The notes under the pieces are model-generated. The model saw only the letters and a list, made by a program, of their open reading frames with translations. It did not search any database and was not told the DNA's origin. DNA of 64,000 nucleotides from contig NC_043003.1 in NCBI RefSeq assembly GCF_006345805.1, positions 19,902,001 through 19,966,000 on the forward strand, written 5' to 3'. The DNA comes from Octopus sinensis (lineage: Eukaryota). This document shows positions 2,577 through 42,029 of the stretch, in pieces. Positions within the stretch are counted from its first letter, which is position 1; every line of letters begins with the position of its first letter. A program made the translations under genes and the position numbers.

Positions 2577-2613
<37 letters not shown>

Positions 2614-3014
2614 TAATAATAATAATAATTACGTATTATTTTCGGACTTGGGCATATACTATCAATCTCTTTTGCTGAATCGTTAAGTTACGACGACGTA
2701 AAACAACACTGGTTGCCCAGCGATGTGTGTGTTCAAACATACATACATACATACATACATACATACATACATACATACATACATACATACATACATACAT
2801 GCATACATACATACACACACACACACATACATACATACACGCACACACACACACAAACACATTTATATGTATAAATAGACAGGAAAGATTGTCGGAAGGG
2901 GTTTGAGTAGTTGAAGGACTAATAGAAGCTTGAGAATATTTAAGGTTATAAAGTATTAACCCGCTACTCACATAATTTCTACAAGGAATAAGAACAAACC
3001 CGAGCCAAATCGAG

Positions 3015-3134
<120 letters not shown>

Positions 3135-3164
3135 TGATGATAAAAGCAATAATAATAACAATAA

Positions 3165-3720
3165 ATGCCCTGATGCAGTACCAGATAGTGGATCTCATGG
3201 CTGCCGGTCTTAACTGATTGGAAGTGTCATCATGTACATTGTTTTGTCTTGGTATAAAAGATGGACTACAGCAAATATTCTGCTCAATACCACAGATTTG
3301 CTTGTCAGTTATTTGACCTTAACCAGTTGACCATGCTTCTTAGTAGCTGACGATATGTTCATCTCTGATCACGAGCAGAAGTAGCGGGGGAGCATCATAG
3401 CCGTGTGTTGAAAGGAATTCTTAGAGGTTTGGATAATTCACCTTTGGAAACATGGGTGGTTCGTTCAACATCCTTAAACAATCCTTATTCAGGGACCTTT
3501 TGAGCGGGATGGGCTACTCGACCAGAAGAAAATTCTAACTGGGCCCCACTTGCAAGGTCATGCGACGCTTATCTTAATATGAGATTACCATGTCGCGCAC
3601 ATATGGCTGTGATGTATGCACCTGGTGTACCCTTATCAGACGGGTAGTCATGATGGGTATACTGAGCTTGGTATATTTTATCCCAGTGTCATTTTGATGG
3701 CATGCACTGCTCTCTCACTC
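3165..3720. repeat. ~555-bp non-coding dispersed element embedded in (AAT)n
   Basis: Bounded on both sides by (AAT)n; its first ~100 bp recur at 22735-22835. Confidence 0.7.
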
Positions 3721-3760
<40 letters not shown>

Positions 3761-4185
3761 TTAATAATAATAATGATAATAATAATGATAATAATAATAA
3801 TAATCCTTTCTACTGGAAGCACAAGGGTATGGGATTAAGTCGATTACATAGATTCCAGTACGTAACTGGTATTATTTTATCATCGACCTCGATAGAATGA
3901 AAAGCAGTCAGCCTCGGCGGAATTTGATCTTAAAACGTAAAGACATGAATACAACTATCTAGTTATCAGATATAGACATATATCAAACACAAGATGGCCA
4001 AGTTACTGAACCAATCACTAACTCTGCCATTTCTATATAGAATCATTCATAAGCAGTCCGTCTCATTTGTGTGTAGCACTTCTAGACATTACTGCAAACA
4101 CTATTCTAAAATACTAAACCTGAAACACAGTCCACACGCAAAATATTCCTCATCGCACATTCATTCAAAAGTAGCAACGTAGGCA

Positions 4186-4379
4186 TACGACGTGATGCTG
4201 AAAAGTTCCTGGCCTTAAGAAGCCAAACTTTCTAAGTTCTTTTACAGAGTTTAGAAAAACTGAAGGCCCGCTCTAATAAGTGTGTGAATCTGAGAGGGGA
4301 ATATGTTGAATAAAATCATAACTGATCCTCCTGTATTTTATTTGACCCAAAGCCAGGAACTTTTCAGCACTTTCTCGTG
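4186..4379 (+). mobile_element. mariner-derived MITE (plus a second deletion derivative at ~4453-4545)
   Basis: TIRs TGCTGAAAAGTTCCTGGC / GCCAGGAACTTTTCAGCA; internal remnant translates to the transposase C-terminus NKCVNLRGEYVE*. Confidence 0.8.
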
Positions 4380-4392
4380 TGTGTGTGTGTGT

Positions 4393-4438
<46 letters not shown>

Positions 4439-4906
4439 GTGTGGTGTGTGTGCATGAGGGGGTGCTGAAAAACCGAAGGACCACTGCAATAAGTGTGTGA
4501 ATCTGTGAATAAAATCGTAATTAACTGATCGTCCTGTATTTTCTTTTCTATATTTGTGGTGGGAGGGCTGAGGGGGCGCTAGGAATGTGGCCCGGGTACC
4601 AAGGGGGCAGCAGCCTGAAAATTTTGGGTATACAGTGTATATCAAAGATAGACGGGACAGTTGAATGAACTGTTACGTTCCATACTGTCCCAGTGCTTCA
4701 CATACAATAAACACCTGCATTTCGAAGTGTGATTAGTAAGGACTATAGATCGATATCTATAGGTATAAATAGATATCTGGATCGGATCTTTATTATTACA
4801 CGATCGATTATCAGCGTGCCATAACATGACTACTCGTTGATAGCTGACCTAGGGCTAAACAATCCAGAATACTACTAACTGAAAAAAAAACCCCAAAACA
4901 AAATAA

Positions 4907-5009
4907 AACAATGATGATGACGAGGACCAAGTCGCCGATGACGATGACGATGATGATGATGATGATGATAATGATGATGATGATGATGATGATGGTAATG
5001 ATGATAGTA

Positions 5010-5043
<34 letters not shown>

Positions 5044-5319
5044 GATGATGATGGTAATGATGATGGTAATGATGATGATGATGATGATAATGATGATGAT
5101 GATGATGATGATAATGATGATGATGATGATAATGATGATAATGATGATGATGATGATGTGATGATGATGATGATGATGGTAATGATGATGATGATGATGA
5201 CGATGATGATGATGATGATGTTGATGACAATGATGGTGACGACGATGTTGATGATGATGGTGATGGTGATGATGATGATGATGATGATGATGATGACGAT
5301 GATGGTAATGATGATAGTA

Positions 5320-5361
<42 letters not shown>

Positions 5362-6225
5362 GTAATGATGATGGTAATGATGATGATGATGATGATAATG
5401 ATGATGATGATGATAATGATGATGATGATGGTAATGATGATAATGATGATGATGATGATGATGATGATAATGATGATGATGATGATGATGATGATGATGG
5501 TAATGATGATGATGATGATGACGATGATGATGATGATGATGATGATGATGACGATGATGATGATGATGATGATGGTAATGATGATGGAATGATGATGATG
5601 ATGATGACGATGATGTTGATGATGATAAGAAAAGCTGAGTAGATAGAAACTGCGCCGACATGTGTGTTAAAATACATGAGTTTTATCTCTCCATTACAGT
5701 TTATGTCCCTAAGCCAACAACATTCACAAGAAGAATACAAAAGAAAGAAAAGAAAAAAGAAGAAAATAGAAGAGGGCCGAGGAGAAGAAGAAAAGAACGA
5801 CGACGATGATGATGATGATGGAATGGTAATAGCTGTGAGGGTGATAGTGATGATGTTCTTGATGATGATGGTGATGAGGATAAAGACGATAATGATAATG
5901 ATGATGGTGGTGGTGGTGATAATGATTATGATGATAAAGATGATGATAATGGTAATAATGATGATGATGGTGATGATGATAAAGATGATAATGATGGTGG
6001 TGGTGGCGGTGGTGATGATAATGATGATGATGATGAAGACGATGATAATAGTAATAATGATGATGATGGTGATGATGAGAAAGATGATAATGATGGTGGT
6101 GGTGGTGGTGGTGGTGGTGATAATGATTATGATGATGATGAAGATGATGATAATGGTAATAATGATGATGATAATGGTAATAATGATGATGATAATGGTA
6201 ATAATGATGATGATGGTGATGATGA
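4907..6225. repeat. Two long imperfect (GAT)n microsatellite blocks
   Basis: ~4907-5625 and ~5795-6225; source of the poly-M/H/S/I pseudo-ORFs. Confidence 0.95.
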
Positions 6226-6619
6226 AAGCAAAAAGAGACCCCCCCCAAAAAAAAACCCCAAAGATAAGTAAAAGAATAAAGTAAAACAAAACCAGGAAAA
6301 GGATAAGGAAGAGGAAACGGTGAAGGGAAATCTGACAGAAGCGAATAAGAAAAAGAAACCAATTCCCCTCACCCACCCCACCCCAGAAGTTTGAATTGTA
6401 ATTCTATCTTAGAATGCAAATGATTCCAATAGCCGGAGGCTACTCAGTAGGGATGCCAACTAGTTAAAAATTTATTCAAAATTGAAAGTTAGAAAGGTTC
6501 AAGAGCACTCCCCTTCCACTCATGCGCATGCGTATGTCTCAGTTTACACGCATGCAAGTCTATATAAATGTGTGAGAGTATGTGCGTGTGTGTGCCTGTA
6601 TGTGTGTGTGTATATGTTT

Positions 6620-6976
<357 letters not shown>

Positions 6977-7086
6977 GTCAGGAGAGATAGAGAGAGATAG
7001 CCTATCAAAAGCTTGTGCTTGTGAAGGTGTTTGGCACACACACACACATTTACGTATCCATACATATGTGTATGAACAACACATAG

Positions 7087-7121
<35 letters not shown>

Positions 7122-8419
7122 TACATGCATACATGATCTATACATATAAACACCCCCGCACGCACACATACATTCATACAAACGTACATAATACATACTA
7201 GTATAATATTTGGTGTTGTCCAACTAAAAGTACTTGTGTATCGCCCAGAACTGTCCTAAACGAAGGTATATTCGATTTAATAAAAGATTATTATTGATCG
7301 TCACTTAAAAAAATGGTGTCTTCCTGAGACGAAACGAAACTACGTTTACAGCTGTACAATATTTAATGCGCTCTGCTACAGGAGACCGAGAATCAATATT
7401 AGTAATATATTTTGTAATGCAATTATGTAATTAACATATCATTTGAATTTACCATTAAACATTATATTTTATTGGTTTTATTTTGAAATTTTTAACGTCT
7501 TTAAAATAATTTTTAAAATGAGTAAAAATTGGAATTTCAGTGGTTAAATCACTCATGAAAATAAAACCGTTTTTATAACGTGTGAAGCAGAAGAACTTGG
7601 AAGAAATTAATACTTCCAAACATTGCAGCTGGCCAGAAGCAATGCATGCATTTAAAAAATGATATGGAGAGTTGCAATGAACCCTTAAGTAGTAGATCTT
7701 CGTGTTTTAAGTTCAAATCCCGCCGAAGTCAACTTGGCCATTTATCCTTTAGGGAGCGTTGTAAAATATTCCGAGTGGCGGATTAGCAGTGCTGTAAAAA
7801 CATCGGACCAGGTGCTTTGCTTGTAATATTTGTTCCAGATATTTGTATTCTGAGTTCAAATCTCGCCGAGCTCAACTTTCGGAGGTGGGCACAAAGGTTT
7901 CAAATCCATGTTGGTGGATTGGCGGGACTGTGGGAACGTCGGACCAGATATCTTCTGGTATTTGTTTCGGATACTTGCCTTCTTAGTTAAAATTTTGTTT
8001 AGGCTGTAGACCTTAAACGTCGCCCGTTTTAACAACACCACCCAGTACCTTGGGTGCCTTTGGCAGAGCCCACTCTTCAGACCAGGTCAGCTCTTTCAGG
8101 ACACTTTCCATTATCCCTTCCAACGTTAAGTTCCTGTAAAGAGTTATGGACGATGCTTTTCCTCCTGACTACAAAATTAAATAAAATAAAAAGGCATCGA
8201 AGGGGCGATGCATGCCCTGCACACAGATAATTTTTTTCGCAAATTATAGTGTGGCTTACAATTCGTTGCTTAACCCAAATTTTTTTCAAGTATCACCATA
8301 ATAGGTATTTATACTCCGGTGAAATTAAGAAATCAACTCGTAAATAACCGAAGCTCTTGACTCCATCACTGTACACACACACACCCATGCGCGCGCACAG
8401 ACACGCGCACACACGCACG

Positions 8420-8494
<75 letters not shown>

Positions 8495-8854
8495 ATTCAA
8501 TTCTTAGTCAGTCATAGCTGAGAAAAATCTAAATTACACGACTGCATAAATTCTTTTAGATTAAATGAGCTCTAGGACTCATAAACCCGGAGCTTAATCT
8601 GGTTTACTTGGTGTATAGTACATGATTGAGGTGACAACATTTTCTACTGAATGAGACGCCTGTCTCTCGCAGGGTTAACTTCCCATCTATTGCTGGAACG
8701 CGTTTACAGTTGAGTTGATAGGAACTACTTTAAATAAAGTATTTTTGTTCAAGAACACGTCGCGCTGCCTAATCCGAGAATTGAACCTACGATATTACAG
8801 TCACGAGGGCATTCACCTCCATAGCCATATTATTGGAGAACCATTTTCTGTCTC

Positions 8855-9261
8855 TTTACTCTTTACTCTGTTACTTGTTTCAGTCATTTGACTGTAGCCA
8901 TGCTGGAGCACCGCCTTTAGTCTAGCAAATCGACCCCAGGACTTATTGTTTGTAAGCCTAGTACTTATTCTATCGGTCTCTTTTGCCGAACCGCTGAGTT
9001 ACGGGGACGTATACAAACCAGCATCATGTTGGGGGACAAATACAGATGCACAAACATATACACACACACATACACACGCATATATATACATATATACGAC
9101 GGGCTTCTTTCAGTTTCCGTCTACCAAATCCACTCACAAGGCTTTAGTCGGCCCGACGCTATAGTAGAAGACACTTGCCCAAGGTGCCCCGCAGCGAGAC
9201 TGAACCCGGAACCATGTGGTTGGTAAGCAAGCTACTTACAACACAGCCACTCCTACGCCTA
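8855..9261 (-). mobile_element. SINE family D (tRNA-derived head, internal TA/TG microsatellite, GTAAAAGA tail)
   Basis: Minus strand reads GTAGGAGTGGCTGTGT..TAAGTAGCTTGC..GGGTTCAGTC..GGCAAGTGTCTTC ... GACTGAAACAAGTAA; about 10 copies in the window. Confidence 0.85.
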
Positions 9262-10679
9262 TGTCTAGCAATAAACTTGAAGGTTCTCAGGAATATACAA
9301 TTAATGCAGGATAGTAAACACATTATTGCCCATTGATTGGCAGGAATTGCTATATTATAGAAATATCAGCAACAGTCACCAGTTGACATGGCTGATTGCA
9401 ACATTTTGGGGCACAAGTATTAATCTTTTGCATATCCATTTGCGTGTTAGGTAATGATGTTTCCTGTTAGAATCACCTCCAATATCAATTTGTCTGCTGT
9501 CTTAACCCTTGTGCTTACAGGAACTGCGTTCCTGATGACATTGCTTTCGGAAGAAAAACTCCTCTCTTGATCATGAAACAAATTTTTAACAAAAACTGAC
9601 CAGATATCTGATCTTGACAGAAGATGTACGTTAGTGTTTGTAGATTATTAGAAGAGTTTAAGTTTAGTCTAGAGTGTCGTCGTTTTAAGGAAAGCACCGA
9701 TATAATTGGCTTTGGTACTTTTTGAAATGGTTGACTGGGTATTAGGAAAGTAACTTGATATCACAGCTATTTATTTCGTTTAATCTCAATTGTCACCGAA
9801 GCCCTGCACTGTTTTGCCCAGATCTTCTTAAGTTCTCTTGCGCGCTCAGGTCTTCTATATCTCTCTTGTGTGCCACTAACTCTAGACAATAATCTGGCAT
9901 ATCCCAAGAACTGTTTGATTCCCGATATTCTTCGCAATGTTGCATAACAAGTGCATCATCTGCGCCTAAGTGAAAGAGTAACATAACAGAATACAAATCT
10001 CTCTGGTCTGTCGTGAGCCTAGATTCATTGTCAAGGATACAGTCTGTTAATGTGTCAACTCAACGCTCTTCTCTTTTAAATTTCTGTTGAAGATATATTG
10101 ATTTCAGAGCAGTTTAGACAGTTTATATATTTGAAATATATTAGACAGGTCATATATTTGAAATGTTTGTGAGTTATTTTCCCTTGTTGCAGCCTCGTGA
10201 AATCTCTCAAGAGACATTTCTTAAGTATTTGAAGAAAGCTTTTCAAAATCTTTTGCTATATTAGACAGTTTTTAAGACAATACTAAAAACTATTCACGCT
10301 TTTATAATCTTTTGATATTGTTTTTTGTTCTCTTAAAAAGCAAAGCAAATTAATTTTGCTTGAAGTATTCCAAGAATGTAATTCTAACTGTGGGAATTTG
10401 ATTTTTGCCACTTGATTGGTTTCCGAAATATATACGCATCTAATTGATGAACGAGAGAGATACCAATATCAAGGTTGATTAAACCATTTTAAGATGACTT
10501 AATTTATAACATTGATTACATTTTATTTTCCACTCGACTTTGCGTACGTGAATGCGTGGTCAAATTTATCCTGTTGCTGCTGATATAGTTGTTGTTGTTG
10601 CCATTGTTTTTATTGTTGTTATAATTGTTGTTGTTACTGCTCCTGCTGTTGCTGTTGATGCTATTGTTTCTGTTGTTTG

Positions 10680-35862: not shown

Positions 35863-36982
35863 CAGTGACTACTGTTTTGTTCCATTGCATCCGATAGAGT
35901 CTGATTACAGAAAGATTTGGATGCTATATTCAACCCATCGAACGACCGCGGAGATAACCTCCCGTTAGTTCGAGACACTTCATGATTGTGCGTAGCATAG
36001 GCATAAAGAACTCCAATAAAATTACCAAGTGTCGTAGTCTCTTAATTATATCACCCGCAAACGAAGGATCAGTTATTGCTAAAGGCCATGGCATTCTTCC
36101 TCCTTATTAAATAATATAAAAAACAACATCTGACATTAAATAACTGATTTACCTGATGATACAGTAATGTAACCTAGAAACGTAAGTAATATAAACCTAG
36201 GAGAAGATCAATAAAAACAAAATCAATAGGCTAATAAAATACCTTGAAATGAAATTAAAATATAAATAACGAAGTCCGAACAAAGACATATTTTTAATTA
36301 AATATATATATTTAAATGAAAGAGCCGTCTTTTCTATGTAATATACACGTCTCTGTGCATGTGATATTAAAACATACCGTGATTTTAATAAAAGTTTCTT
36401 TAAATTTTCGATATTAGTGTTTTTATTGTAACACAGAAAATGTTTTGATTTATAGTTTACTATAGACATTTTTAGTGAATGGTTCTTTTTCTTTCGGTCT
36501 GTCCTAACAGTAAACTAATTCTGGATTAATGACTAACAAACACAGGAAACAGTTATATAAGTTAAAAATCTAAATATATTATTTTTAAAAACAAATACTT
36601 TTTAAAACTAATCTGAATAGATTTGCAGAAATGAAAGAGTGATGGATGAGATGTGCGTAGCGCTCTTTGGATGGCCGTTAATACAAAGGGAGGTAGCTTT
36701 GTAAATGTTTCACTCTAGGGGTCCCAAATGCCGGTCGGACCGCTGATCATTTGGACTCGGGCCGCACAGAAAGAATAAATTCTTAAATTTGATATCTACT
36801 TCATTGACTATCGAGATGCAGGCGTAGCTGTGTGGCAAGAAGTTTGCTTCCCATCCACATGGCTTCAGGTTCAATTCACTGCGTCACACCTTGGACAAGT
36901 GTCTACTACTATAGTTTTGAGCCGATCAAAGTCTTGTGAGGGGATTTGGTAAACGGAAACTGAAACCAGCTTGCCGTACATA

Positions 36983-37556
36983 TCAGGTCGTCCCATAAGT
37001 TCTGTCCGAATTTTGAATAAAGAAAACAAGTCTTCAAATGTTATATTTAATTGAAATTTAATCATCAATGTACTTTCCCTGATTATCTAAGACTCTCTTC
37101 CATCTATTTACAAGCTTTTTAATCCAATCAATGTAAAACTCTTATGGTTTCGAAGAGAACTCTGAAATGGCAGTTTCGACCTCCTCCTGGCTTACGAAAG
37201 TTATGTCCCCCAAATGATTCTGTAAACTACGAAACAAATGCTAGTCTGAAGGGGCAAGGTCGGGAGAATAAGGTGGATGAGGAATTTTTTCCCAACGAAG
37301 CTCTTCGATCTTCTGTGATGTGATCTTTGCAGTGTGGGGTCGCGCATTGTCCTGATTAAACACCACTCCTTTTCAATTCACTAAAGCGGGTCTTTTATTC
37401 TTCAAAGCTTGGTTTAAACGCTCTAATTGCTGACAGTAGACTTGAGCATTGATTGTTGCATCAGGTGGTAACAATTGAAAGTGAATTACTCCTTTGCAAT
37501 CCCACCAGATTGAGAGAAGAAACTTTTCCGCATGAAGTTCCCTTCTCGGTTGTGGT
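36983..37556 (-). mobile_element. mariner 3' half (part of an inverted duplication)
   Basis: TIR TCAGGTCGTCCCATAAGTTCTGTCCGA preceded by TA; LSIWWDCKGVIHFQLLP..YCQQLERL. Confidence 0.9.
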
Positions 37557-38433: not shown

Positions 38434-39346
38434 CAGATCATCCCATCTGTTCTGTCCGATTTTACCTTTTTTAAAATTGAATGAAATATGAAATTTAATA
38501 GTATTTTAGAATGTCTAATGGAATTAAAAACTATTTTTATGCACTTGTGTACATCTAAACTAATTAAATATTATTTTACAGAATAATAGAATTAAAATTT
38601 CTTTGATTAAAACACTTTCTAATATGGAAGTATCCAAAGAGCATTTGAGGCATACAATGCTTTATGAGTACATAAAAGGAAACTCTGCAGCCGAAGTGAC
38701 TCGAAACATGCACTCAGTTTATGGGAAAGAATTCTTGAATGAAAGAACTTGCAGTGGCTTGGTAAAAAGGAAAAAGCTCAACTACAACCGAGAAGGGAAA
38801 AAAGTTATTCTCTCTATCTGGTGGGATTACAAAGGAGTAATTCACTTTGAATTGTTACCACCTTATGCAACAATCAATGCTCAAGTCTATTGTCAGCAAT
38901 TAGAGCGTTTAAACCAAGCTTTGAAGAATAAAAGACCCGCTTTAGTGAATTGAAAAGGAATGATGTTTCATCAGGACAATGCGCGACCCCACACTGCAAA
39001 GATCACATCACCGAAGGTCGAAGAGCTTCGTTGGGAAAAAATTCCCCATCCACCTTATTCTCCCTACCTTGCACCTTCAGACTACCATTTGTTTCGTAGT
39101 TTACAGAATCATTTGGGAGACATAACTTTCGCAAGCCAGGAGGAGGTAGAAACTGCCATTTCAGAGTTCTTTCCTTTGAACCCAAAAGAGTTTTACATTG
39201 ATGGGATTAAAAAGCTTGTAAATAGATGGAAGGAAGTCATAGATAATCAGAGAAAGTACATTGATGATTAAATATCAATTAAATATAACATTTGATCGCT
39301 TGTTTTCGCTATTCAAAATTCGGACAGAACTTATGGGACGACCTGA
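38433..39346 (+). mobile_element. Internally deleted mariner with a transposase pseudogene
   Basis: TA-flanked TIRs; MEVSKEHLRH.., WWDYKGVIHFELL, HQDNARPH, HPPYSPYLAPSDYHLF; in-frame TGA at 38951-38953. Confidence 0.93.
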
Positions 39347-39629
39347 TATGTGCGGCAAGCTGGTTTCAGTTTCCGTTTACCAAATCCCCTCACAAGGCTT
39401 TCATCGGCCCAAAGCTATAATAGTAGACATTTGCCCAAGGTGTCACGCAGTGGATTGAACCTGAAGCCATGTGGATGGGAAGCAAACTTCTTGCCACACA
39501 GCTACGCCTGCATCTCGATAGTCAATGAAGTAGATATCAAATTTAAGAATTTATTCTTTATGTGCGGTCCGATACCAAATGATCTGTGGTCCGACAGTTG
39601 GGGACCCCAAGAGTGAAACATTTACAAAG

Positions 39630-39725
39630 GGAAAGTACATTGATGACTAAATATCAATTAAATATAACATTTCATCCTTTGTTTTCTTTATTCAAATTTC
39701 GGACAGAACTTATGGGATGACCTGA
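39630..39725 (+). mobile_element. Third copy of the mariner right end
   Basis: GGAAAGTACATTGATGACTAA...TCGGACAGAACTTATGGGATGACCTGA followed by TA. Confidence 0.9.
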
Positions 39726-39729
39726 TAGA

Positions 39730-40302
39730 TATGACTTGTCCAGGCCATGTCTAACTTTATAATCACCACCTGATAGAATTTGCCAAATTCTTTTAAAACC
39801 AAGTTTTGTGGTATCATGGCCCATTCGAGTAGGGAGTTCTTGTTGAGTGAGTTGTATTCTGGTATAGGTGGCTTATCTGGTATCACTTGAAGAAATTTGT
39901 CCAGATTCCGTTTAAAGAAGATGGGACCCCTTTCCTCTTTGATCTGTTTTAGGACAATGTTAAATAGGGCAGGGCCTGTTGAGGAAAAGAAATTGTGTTG
40001 CAGGGTATTTATGTGTTGTGATCCTGAATTGGGTAGGGGACGCATGGCCCGTGGTCCTAGCCTTGGATGAATTCTGAAACTAATGTTTGGGCAATGCTGG
40101 TGGTATATTCTCCACATCGTGCAAATGATGTATCGCTCACGGCGGCGCTGGAGTCAATCAAGTTTTAATGCTTTAAGGCGGTCCCAATAATTGAGATCAG
40201 TCATGCCCTTAATTCTTTTCGTGAATGCCTTCTGGGGTGATTCAATTTGCGAAATGTTTTGTTTTGCGTAGGGAGACCACATGGGGCAGTAGTATTCGAG
40301 TC
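39730..40302 (-). mobile_element. CR1-type LINE 3' fragment
   Basis: LEYYCPMWSP..IESPQKAFTKRI..NYWDRLKAL; QRRRERY; GPALFN; FKRNLDKFL..IPDKP. Confidence 0.85.
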
Positions 40303-40303
40303 A

Positions 40304-40334
<31 letters not shown>

Positions 40335-40455
40335 ATAGAGGGCATTAATACACATAAATGCCTCACACTAAGAGGGACAAAGTCATTACTACCAAAATTA
40401 CACTAATCATACCTAAATGCAGTTCTTCAAAGCAAGACATTTAAAAAATGAATTT

Positions 40456-40513
40456 AGTTCTGTATCACCGTGATTTCACATTTAAATTACGTCTTATGAT
40501 CCTCAGCAGAACT
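40456..40513 (-). ncRNA. Type I hammerhead ribozyme (complete core)
   Basis: AGTTCTG-CTGAGGA-TCAT..ATGT-GAAA-TCA-CGG-TGAT-A^-CAGAACT: perfect 7-bp stem I, 4-bp stem III, AUA triplet; weak stem II. Confidence 0.75.
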
Positions 40514-40674
40514 GATTCTGAACACATCATAAATAAACCACCAACCTTACCTAGCGAAGACGAACAGACATCTATTCACTCCGGCCAAGCACATGGAATG
40601 TTTATAAATCATATATTCGGTAAATGGCGGGCTTTTTCGAACTGCATGTCGGATAGGAAAAGTATTTCGGAATA

Positions 40675-40783
40675 AATTTAACAATTAAGGATAACTTCTT
40701 AATAAGGGATCTTAACAAGAAATTATCAGGTAGTTGATAATTTCTTGTTAAGATCCCTTATTAAGAAGTTATCCTTAATTGTT

Positions 40784-40788
<5 letters not shown>
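40675..40788. repeat. Perfect 54-bp-arm inverted repeat with a 6-nt loop
   Basis: 40675-40728 is the exact reverse complement of 40735-40788; loop GGTAGT; runs into (TA)n. Confidence 0.95.
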
Positions 40789-40822
<34 letters not shown>

Positions 40823-42029
40823 TATATATATAATATATATATATATAATTTATATTAATGTTTTTTTTGATGACTACTGTATTCTTATCTTAAATGTATT
40901 GAATTTTATACTGTATATATGTATGTTATTATGGTTGTAGTTTTGATAATTAAATTAGTCAACATTCTAATATCCTAAAGCTGATAAACCAACTAATGTG
41001 TTTATCCATTTTTTATTTGTAATATATATATATATATATATCATGGGGCCGATCGAGTAAACCTATCAATAATGAACCTATAATGACTACTGGAAACAGT
41101 CGTAAGTCATACAACTCCAATAACGAAAAATATGTAATGACCATTATTTATGTCTTGTCTTCTAATTACGTATATACATAAGTATATTATATGTATTATA
41201 TGTAATATATATTACATATATCATATTACAAATATTATATTACATATATATCATATTTATTATATATATATTGTTAATATATGTTATATTTTATTTAATT
41301 ATATACTTATACATACACACACATACCTATACACACATACACACATATAACGTAAGTGGTGGTGTTAGGAATAAGTTAATACTATAATAATTCACGATTA
41401 GTTCTTCAATTCCGTTGAGGTTGAGATAAAAATCTTGACGACATTGATTGACTCGGTATTATCGGCTTCACAGCTTCACACTGTAAAACGGAAGGCAAGC
41501 TTCATCTCACAACGGGTCCTTTGGGGCCAACAAGAGACAGGCTATCATTTTCCTTCCTATTTATTTACTATCTACATCTCTATATGGTTATAAGTGTTAC
41601 AGTGTCAGAGTGAAATTTTTATATCTAGTCACGGAGCCATAAATATTTCTGAAGTTTAATGTTTGTGAGACTGTCACTCCTGTTATTAAAATTATATCTA
41701 TCCTGCCGACCCTACGTCGGAGTTTCTATGTAGTTGCACGTCCTGCTAAAAACAACAGTCAAATTTCATTATATTACGCTCTACTGTATTTAAAAAGAGA
41801 AGGGGATATGTCATATCATAGTCGTTGATACATCATATTTGAATAAAAAGTGTGGATGTGTGGCCAAGAAACATTCTTCCACACCATCTGGTCTTGGGTT
41901 CAGTCCTACAGTGCGGCACTTTGGGCATGCATCTTCTGCTATAGCTCCGAACTGACGAAAACCTTGAGTGTTGATTTGGTTGACGGAAACTGAACGACGT
42001 ACGCCGTCTCTCTCTCTATATATGTAGAT

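What the first reader, a model, noticed from the sequence alone, without database searches (positions are those of the whole stretch)
40330..40790. Complete hammerhead ribozyme plus a perfect 54-bp hairpin in a ~460-bp unit bounded by (TA)n
Seen: between two (TA)n tracts the minus strand carries a type I hammerhead (stem I AGTTCTG/CAGAACT, CTGAGGA, GAAA, stem III ATCA/TGAT, AUA site). About 160 bp upstream of it on that strand lies a mismatch-free 54-bp fold-back that ends at the TA run. Known: minimal type I hammerheads mark Penelope pLTRs and retrozymes, and PLE 5' ends are often inverted. Inference: a recent non-autonomous, ribozyme-bearing retroelement that targets TA repeats and was completed by self-priming (snap-back) synthesis. 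I found no ORF in it.
Basis: partly seen in the sequence, partly recalled or inferred. Interest (0 to 1): 0.72.

Follow-up and report, generated by a model that had tools for sequence, protein, structure and literature searches.

The report
Two-armed Penelope-style hammerhead retrozyme insertion
This is one young copy of a protein-free, 476-base repeat that carries a predicted self-cutting RNA motif and sits in TA runs at hundreds of places in this genome, and its long hairpin is simply two back-to-back copies that end at two different fixed points, the likely footprint of a borrowed Penelope-type enzyme starting twice on a probably circular RNA.

Summary
Confirmed: a type I hammerhead motif (40513-40456, minus strand) and a perfect 54-bp hairpin lie between two TA runs. 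The 460-bp 'unit' is not the unit, though. It is 404 bases of a ~476-base ORF-less tandem monomer plus a 54-base inverted second arm. The family has at least 1262 motif matches, arrays of up to about 15 units, and sister subfamilies with compensatory changes in stems I and II. Insertions are mostly head-to-head pairs with two fixed 3' ends (E1, E2) 134 bases apart; all 62 of 62 intact two-armed insertions carry one of each. Two Penelope-type insertions here show the same pairing. Snap-back is not the general route (20 of 49 arm pairs cannot be copied from each other), but near-symmetric junctions are modestly enriched, so it stays possible for this copy. This copy's ribozyme has a private stem II lesion. 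Best reading: a non-LTR retrozyme mobilised by a Penelope-type enzyme priming both target strands, likely on a circular RNA. Cleavage, circles and the partner enzyme are not shown. The scan has noted this pattern before on other DNA of this and other genomes.

The parts
40304..40331 (.). (TA)n target run on the E1 side; the exact boundary is blurred by TA-like bases at the element's end
   Evidence: E1 ends in other copies also run into (TA)n
40332..40735 (-). Long arm: unit positions 1-404 of the ~476-base monomer, ending at the fixed 3' end E1
   Evidence: folds at z=-6.0 against 100 shuffles
40456..40513 (-). Type I hammerhead motif; predicted cut between 40463 and 40462; palindromic stem III region (ATCAC-G-GTGAT) suited to a dimer; U.U at the base of stem II; private G>T at 40486
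40690..40727 (-). Predicted internal RNA stem-loop (unit 9-46) inside the 134-base tail between E1 and E2; candidate enzyme-binding signal
   Evidence: the tail is 82% identical between subfamilies against 63-66% elsewhere
40675..40788 (.). Perfect 54-bp DNA fold-back formed by the overlap of the two arms; 6-base loop 40729-40734; 1-base microhomology at 40735
40735..40788 (+). Short inverted arm: unit positions 8-61, ending at the fixed 3' end E2
40788..40855 (.). (TA)n target run on the E2 side

Best explanation
This is a young, sub-monomer, two-armed insertion of a ~476-base non-coding tandem repeat with one type I hammerhead motif per unit (a non-LTR retrozyme), likely made by a borrowed Penelope-type enzyme that nicked both strands of a TA run and primed one arm at site E1 and the other at site E2, probably on a circular RNA. 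Steps: (1) tandem arrays are transcribed and cut by the hammerhead, likely as a dimer, and monomers are ligated into circles (inferred). (2) A Penelope-type RT/GIY-YIG protein binds the conserved 134-base tail (inferred) and nicks both strands of a (TA)n run (target shown, enzyme inferred). (3) One strand primes at E1 and the other at E2 (pairing shown, priming inferred). (4) Each cDNA runs a variable distance, from under one lap to about 14 laps (shown as arm lengths). (5) The two cDNAs are joined head to head at 0-4 base microhomologies or with short fillers (junctions shown). Here the E1 arm ran 404 bases and the E2 arm 54, and they met 7 bases apart in unit coordinates, which yields the perfect hairpin.
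For: Multi-copy and young: 219 matches among 40 of 1366 candidates scored; 1262 exact ribozyme-motif matches and 3767 tail-motif matches, controls 0. Tandem period ~476-480, arrays of up to about 15 units. One E1 plus one E2 end in 28 of 28 (set A), 21 of 21 (set B, unselected) and 13 of 13 (set C, read by eye) two-armed insertions with both ends intact, and no E1/E1 or E2/E2 (p=1e-6 for set B alone if arms chose freely). Two Penelope-type families in this genome also have two TA-abutting ends, 71 and 74 bases apart, and both two-armed examples seen (L048, L128) pair E1 with E2. Neither arm is contained in the other in 20 of 49. 83 of 98 arms cross the predicted cut site, and 5' breakpoints are not enriched there (2 of 124 within 3 bases, 1.8 expected), so the template was not a cut linear monomer. 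Units differ by 0.66% within an arm, 1.06% between the arms of one insertion and 4.5% between insertions, and several arrays carry a rare variant fixed in every unit of both arms (L051, L069, L079). Compensatory changes at 3 of 7 stem I pairs and 2 of 7 stem II pairs across subfamilies. Circular folding z = -4.9 to -7.8 on the ribozyme strand. In vitro, a Penelope-type protein cuts and extends both target strands and starts at two internal RNA sites that bound the tail (PMC11167929).
Against: No autonomous element sharing the unit or its tail was found in 70 loci fetched around Penelope-type ORFs or in 20 further tail-motif loci, so the partner is unnamed. Circles, expression and cleavage are not shown. 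Homogeneous arrays could also come from linear read-through of a homogeneous master: nearest neighbours were strictly within the locus for only 50 of 112 units, with 38 ties and 24 outside. Near-exact fold-back junctions are enriched, which twin priming alone does not predict. In PMC11167929 no difference in start site was seen between the strands in vitro, so strict E1/E2 pairing is not reproduced there. The E1 class (unit 375-421) was drawn after seeing the data and includes a minor end near unit 383-395. The covariation alignment has only 10 rows from about three lineages and was fitted by hand. 'Neptune-type' rests on recalled motifs; Pfam and PDB gave no hit for those proteins.
Confidence: 0.72

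Rival explanations
1. Snap-back self-priming (first reader; also argued for Penelope elements in PMC3846280): one cDNA primed at E1 folded back on itself at unit position 8 and was copied to E2, where it was resolved and joined to the target.
For: In this copy the short arm is wholly contained in the long arm, is 54 of 54 identical, and the tip offset is only 7 bases. Offsets of 0-1 base occur in 3 of 34 unselected junctions (p=0.001) and of 8 or less in 4 of 34 (p=0.03). L171 has nearly the same layout in the sister subfamily.
Against: It cannot produce the 20 of 49 pairs in which neither arm contains the other, including hairpin look-alikes L002 and L009, whose loops come from the short arm. 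Only 1 base of priming homology here. Containment follows automatically from any near-symmetric junction. It needs a separate rule to stop at E2.
Confidence: 0.2
2. Same Penelope-type twin priming, but the template is a linear, uncut multimeric transcript of a master array; the ribozyme and circles play no part in copying.
For: Ribozyme mutants did not affect insertion in vitro for a lizard Penelope-type element (PMC11167929). The U.U pair in stem II suggests weak cutting (axolotl precedent, 22% in 1 h as monomer; PMC7229834). Some loci share a haplotype (L059 and L080; L051 and L079).
Against: Many different haplotypes are each fixed across all units of one dispersed array, which a single-unit bottleneck explains most simply. 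The ribozyme core is kept across subfamilies only 74% alike, with compensatory stem changes.
Confidence: 0.25
3. The unit is the pLTR of an unsampled autonomous Penelope-like element, and these are its truncated stumps, not a separate retrozyme.
For: Same ends, tail and inverted arm as Penelope insertions (PMC8557442, PMC3846280). Only about 110 loci of a family with 3767 motif matches were examined. A weak likeness (79% over 34 bases, E=1.5) links unit 466-22 to the ribozyme of one Penelope-type family.
Against: The unit repeats head to tail up to about 15 times with no ORF. No examined locus joins it in phase to an RT ORF; the adjacent ORFs (L003, L128) are separate insertions beyond TA-rich or TA sequence.
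Confidence: 0.07
4. The hairpin is an assembly artefact (fold-back read).
For: Contigs of four DNA runs did not list a joint at the hairpin tip (contigs of a high-copy repeat, so uninformative).
Against: The short arm stops exactly at the family's E2 end before TA and unique flank, as in the other 61 two-armed insertions.
Confidence: 0.03

Closest known systems
Metazoan non-LTR retrozymes (Cervera and de la Pena 2020, PMC7229834; Li, Clavereau and Pollet 2026, bioRxiv 10.64898/2026.07.22.740005)
   Same: Non-coding, low-GC (33%) tandem units with one type I hammerhead each; highly self-paired; U.U at the base of stem II as in axolotl HHR_Amex2; proposed dependence on Penelope-like elements.
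   Different: The unit (476) is a little above the 150-450 range given. Insertions are dispersed, TA-targeted and two-armed with two fixed ends; PMC7229834's main text has no occurrence of 'inverted', 'target site', 'microsatellite' or 'octopus', and the preprint none of 'tail' or 'octopus'. Circles and cleavage are shown there, not here.
Insertions of endonuclease-bearing Penelope-like elements (pLTR, inverted 5' copy, optional tail; PMC8557442, PMC3846280, PMC11167929)
   Same: Head-to-head inverted arm, tail at one end only, two fixed 3' ends, microsatellite targeting, hammerhead in the repeated end.
   Different: No ORF. The tail is 134 bases, against 30-40 in print and 71-74 in two Penelope-type families of this genome. 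Here the one-end-each rule is counted (62 of 62); the passages I read state it only as 'optional' or 'often at one end'.
[quoted passage not shown]
   Same: Type I topology, likely dimer action.
   Different: This motif keeps a 4-bp stem III with a palindromic loop region and a 7-bp stem I, so it is closer to the canonical type I class.

Membership tests
Non-LTR retrozyme | Type I hammerhead in each unit | tested here: met
   the window copy has a private stem II lesion
Non-LTR retrozyme | Short tandem repeats with at least two consecutive ribozyme-bearing units | tested here: met
   Met by the family (arrays of up to about 15 units); the window copy is less than one unit
Non-LTR retrozyme | Unit of about 150-450 bases, GC under 45%, no ORF, no LTRs | tested here: met
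   476 bases (slightly above the range), GC 33%, longest sense stop-to-stop 62-66 aa
Non-LTR retrozyme | Highly self-paired monomer RNA | tested here: met
   Predicted only: circular MFE z -4.9 to -7.8 in 4 of 4 units, 40 shuffles each
Non-LTR retrozyme | Expressed as linear and circular monomer RNA | tested here: inconclusive
   Four runs guessed to be RNA cover the unit (27-29 of 29 bins) as contigs; RNA status is a guess and no silent control was laid
Non-LTR retrozyme | Self-cleavage in vitro | not testable with these tools
   Needs a transcription assay
Autonomous Penelope-like element | Single ORF with RT and GIY-YIG endonuclease | tested here: not met
Autonomous Penelope-like element | Inverted 5'-truncated copy and a tail at one end only | tested here: met
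   62 of 62 intact two-armed insertions; tail 134 bases
Autonomous Penelope-like element | Target site duplication | tested here: inconclusive
   Both flanks are (TA)n, so a duplication cannot be read
Non-autonomous derivative of a named Penelope family | Sequence shared with the pLTR of an autonomous partner | tested here: inconclusive
   No significant match in 70 loci fetched around Penelope-type ORFs; only 121-150 of 2592-10341 candidates per search were scored
Rfam hammerhead families | Match to a curated hammerhead model | tested here: not met
   No hammerhead hit at gathering or at E<=10
Minimal Penelope hammerhead | Stem III absent or reduced to the conserved core | tested here: not met
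   4-bp stem III, invariant in 10 of 10 rows
microRNA precursor | Score at an Rfam family's gathering threshold | tested here: not met
   Best 50.6 bits against a threshold of 110; the hairpin is an insertion junction

The most novel reading that the evidence does not exclude
These insertions record how Penelope-type enzymes integrate in vivo: an asymmetric enzyme pair primes the two target strands at two different obligatory sites, 134 bases apart on one small circular ribozyme RNA, and copies it by rolling circle in both arms at once. This would explain the Penelope tail and inverted end, and how retrozyme arrays are born in one step.
Probability: 0.4. Interest if true: 0.75.

Novelty: new variant of a known kind. 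Interest (0 to 1): 0.5.

Why it matters
How animal retrozymes get into genomes, and why Penelope elements leave an inverted copy and a one-sided tail, are both open in the papers read. This family gives hundreds of young, countable insertions, a strict one-end-each rule, and a 134-base conserved tail that can be used directly as template in the existing in vitro Penelope assay. It also tests the published self-priming idea: most junctions do not fit it. The single copy in the window is unremarkable apart from being the shortest kind of two-armed product.

Tried and rejected
Rfam: no hammerhead hit; the miRNA hits on the hairpin are far below threshold. Search for an autonomous partner: three protein searches of the genome and 70 fetched loci gave no significant match to the unit; 20 loci picked by the tail motif were all copies of the family or its sister subfamilies. 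The idea that unit 466-22 is a dead relic of one Penelope-type family's ribozyme rests on 79% over 34 bases at E=1.5 and is kept only as a lead. The L126 match (E=0.004) was not a related element. 5' ends at the ribozyme cut site: no enrichment. A period-2 pattern pointing to dimer circles: none seen; the toggling column u318 lies at a homopolymer and is likely an alignment or assembly effect. Sequencing runs: no RNA holder on record was listed; contigs from four DNA runs did not resolve the hairpin tip; contigs from four guessed-RNA runs cover the unit but prove no transcription. Pfam found RVT_1 in 1 of 6 proteins and PDB found nothing for the one protein tried. Earlier-findings look-ups by sequence and by near place were blank. 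No protein structure or complex jobs were run, as the element has no ORF.

Full report
Observation. The window is G000:C7:19902001-19966000 of a 2.72 Gb, microsatellite-rich animal genome. Earlier scan notes call it an octopus; I did not test that. The minus strand 40513-40456 carries stem I, the CUGAnGA and GAAA core, a 4-bp stem III and an AUA site, and is the only hit of my type I descriptor in the window. The 54-bp fold-back (40675-40728 with 40735-40788, 6-base loop) is perfect. TA runs flank both ends. Rfam has no hammerhead hit at gathering or at E<=10. No ORF of 120 aa or more overlaps the element.

The real unit. A genome search gave 219 matches among the 40 of 1366 candidates scored, mostly 93-99% identical. 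The unit is a ~476-480 base tandem monomer (reference: L013:1501-1976, positions u1-476), in arrays of up to about 15 units. An 18-base ribozyme motif has 1262 exact matches and a 21-base tail motif 3767, with reversed controls at 0. The first 100 ribozyme matches fall in 33 loci, so several hundred loci is an estimate. The window holds u1-404 on the minus strand and u8-61 on the plus strand, joined head to head at one shared base. It is 98.8% and 99.0% identical to L003 and L008.

The ribozyme. In the main subfamily stem II is a 9-position stem with U.U at its base and a GUAA loop (a variant loop in some copies); sister subfamilies (about 74% alike) have a 4-bp stem II or an A-U base pair. 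On a 10-row alignment, 3 of 7 stem I pairs and 2 of 7 stem II pairs change on both sides, and stem III never varies. The rows represent about three lineages, so this is modest support. The stem III region is palindromic, and a co-fold of two motifs (-26.7 against 2 x -8.6 kcal/mol) pairs them through stems I and III. A U.U stem II base has a precedent in an axolotl retrozyme that cuts weakly as a monomer and better as a dimer (PMC7229834). The window copy is the only one of 195 aligned motifs with G>T at 40486, which breaks the loop-closing pair, so it is likely weakened. Four units fold as circles at z -4.9 to -7.8 on the ribozyme strand and -3.4 to -7.1 on the other.

Two fixed ends, one each. 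Arms end either near u404 (E1) or near u60 of the next unit (E2), 134 bases apart, nearly always running into (TA)n. Set A is 40 non-redundant loci picked by similarity to the window (duplicates L007, L014, L020 and L044-L050 dropped): 28 two-armed with both ends intact, 9 single-armed, 3 with one disrupted end. Set B is the 30 not-yet-fetched loci among the first 100 motif matches on contig C1: 21 intact two-armed, 6 single, 2 disrupted, 1 complex. Set C is 20 tail-motif loci plus L128: 13 intact two-armed, 8 other, read by eye. All 62 intact two-armed insertions pair E1 with E2. The E1 class (u375-421) was drawn after seeing the data, and set C favours loci with an E2 arm. The tail is 82% identical between subfamilies against 63-66% elsewhere. 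Two families with long ORFs that I label Neptune-type Penelope elements from recalled motifs (Pfam and PDB blank) also have two TA-abutting ends, 71 and 74 bases apart, and both two-armed examples seen pair them one each.

Snap-back tested. A fold-back of one cDNA needs one arm to lie within the other. That fails in 16 of 28 (set A) and 4 of 21 (set B) insertions, including L002 and L009, the hairpins most like the window's, whose loops belong to the short arm. Junctions mostly show 0-4 bases of microhomology (38 of 62) or short fillers. In the 34 unselected junctions of sets B and C, 30 are offset by more than 8 bases; but 3 are within 1 base (p=0.001) and 4 within 8 (p=0.03). So a minority may be true fold-backs, and the window copy (offset 7, contained) cannot be assigned with certainty. 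Self-priming was proposed for Penelope elements from such palindromes (PMC3846280); these counts say it is not the general route here.

Template. 83 of 98 arms cross the predicted cut site, as does the window's long arm, and 5' breakpoints are not enriched there. The template was therefore a circle or an uncut multimer. Units differ by 0.66% within an arm, 1.06% between arms and 4.5% between insertions (145 near-full pieces, 339 columns with homopolymers masked). Shared variation within arrays is nearly absent, and rare variants are fixed across both arms in L051, L069 and L079. This favours repeated copying of one monomer. Against it: nearest neighbours were strictly within the locus for 50 of 112 units, tied for 38 and outside for 24; one array (L054) has 7 shared variable columns; and some loci share haplotypes.

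Partner and expression. No autonomous element sharing the unit was found; only a small part of the candidates was scored. No run on record as RNA was listed. Contigs of four guessed-RNA runs cover the unit, which shows nothing firm. DNA-run contigs of two labelled organisms cover it.

Mechanism. Shown: tandem ORF-less unit, ribozyme motif with covariation, TA target, two fixed ends used one each, junction structure, arm homogeneity. Inferred: transcription, cleavage, circularisation, a Penelope-type enzyme, and priming of both strands at E1 and E2. The inference leans on the in vitro result that a Penelope-type protein cuts and extends both strands and starts at two internal sites bounding the tail (PMC11167929). 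That work saw no strand difference in start site and found the ribozyme dispensable for insertion.

Literature seen. PMC11167929: parts 1-2 of 4 (main text into Methods). PMC7229834: passages, the axolotl section and the Discussion. PMC4209133: part 1 of 4. PMC8557442: passages. PMC3846280: passages. bioRxiv 10.64898/2026.07.22.740005: part 1 of 5 and passages. Five searches listed no paper on a cephalopod retrozyme or on counted one-end-each pairing. No supplements were read, and species tables there could list such a family; most subscription papers are not in the library. The one-sided tail itself is in print as an optional feature.

Verdict. A real, young retrozyme-type insertion. The hairpin is the junction of two arms, not a separate feature. 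It works like a Penelope insertion without being an autonomous Penelope element. It meets every sequence-level test for a non-LTR retrozyme except a slightly larger unit; the RNA-level tests are open. Earlier scan notes describe the same pattern for other repeats in this and other genomes; I had the E1/E2 pattern before reading them, and they are not independent support. Interest 0.5.

Noticed in passing
L073:4730-6440; L169:3072-4772; L018:~1000-1130: A ~1.7 kb element with one ORF (473 aa in L169, CCHC knuckle, no Pfam hit) sits at about the same spot of the unit (u155-180) in two subfamilies, with an apparent 15-20 base duplication; L018 shows its start at that spot. It looks like a site-specific parasite of the retrozyme.
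   Followed up: partly
L083-L111, L127: A young Penelope-type family whose hammerhead also has U.U at the base of stem II and a UA cut site; two ends 71 bases apart.
   Followed up: partly
L112-L119, L132-L147: Several Penelope-type families with uninterrupted ORFs of 717-850 aa; candidates for the mobilising enzyme.
   Followed up: partly
L128:593-3775 and 3814-7631: A two-armed array of the sister subfamily lies directly beside a two-armed Penelope-type insertion, sharing one TA run.
   Followed up: partly
L171:3185-4258: A window-like hairpin insertion of the sister subfamily (long E1 arm, short E2 arm) is present twice in tandem.
   Followed up: no
L116:9096 and 9628; L121:1498 and 9829; L112:2077: Other hammerhead motifs with long stem II; two lie 532 bases apart, probably further retrozyme families.
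   Followed up: no
window 36734-37527 and 38799-39595: Two inverted copies (93-95%) of a stretch that includes a decayed mariner-like transposase (label recalled from its translation).
   Followed up: no
window 39710-40153 (minus): A 147-codon open stretch just left of the insertion that looks like the 3' end of a decayed LINE (label recalled).
   Followed up: no
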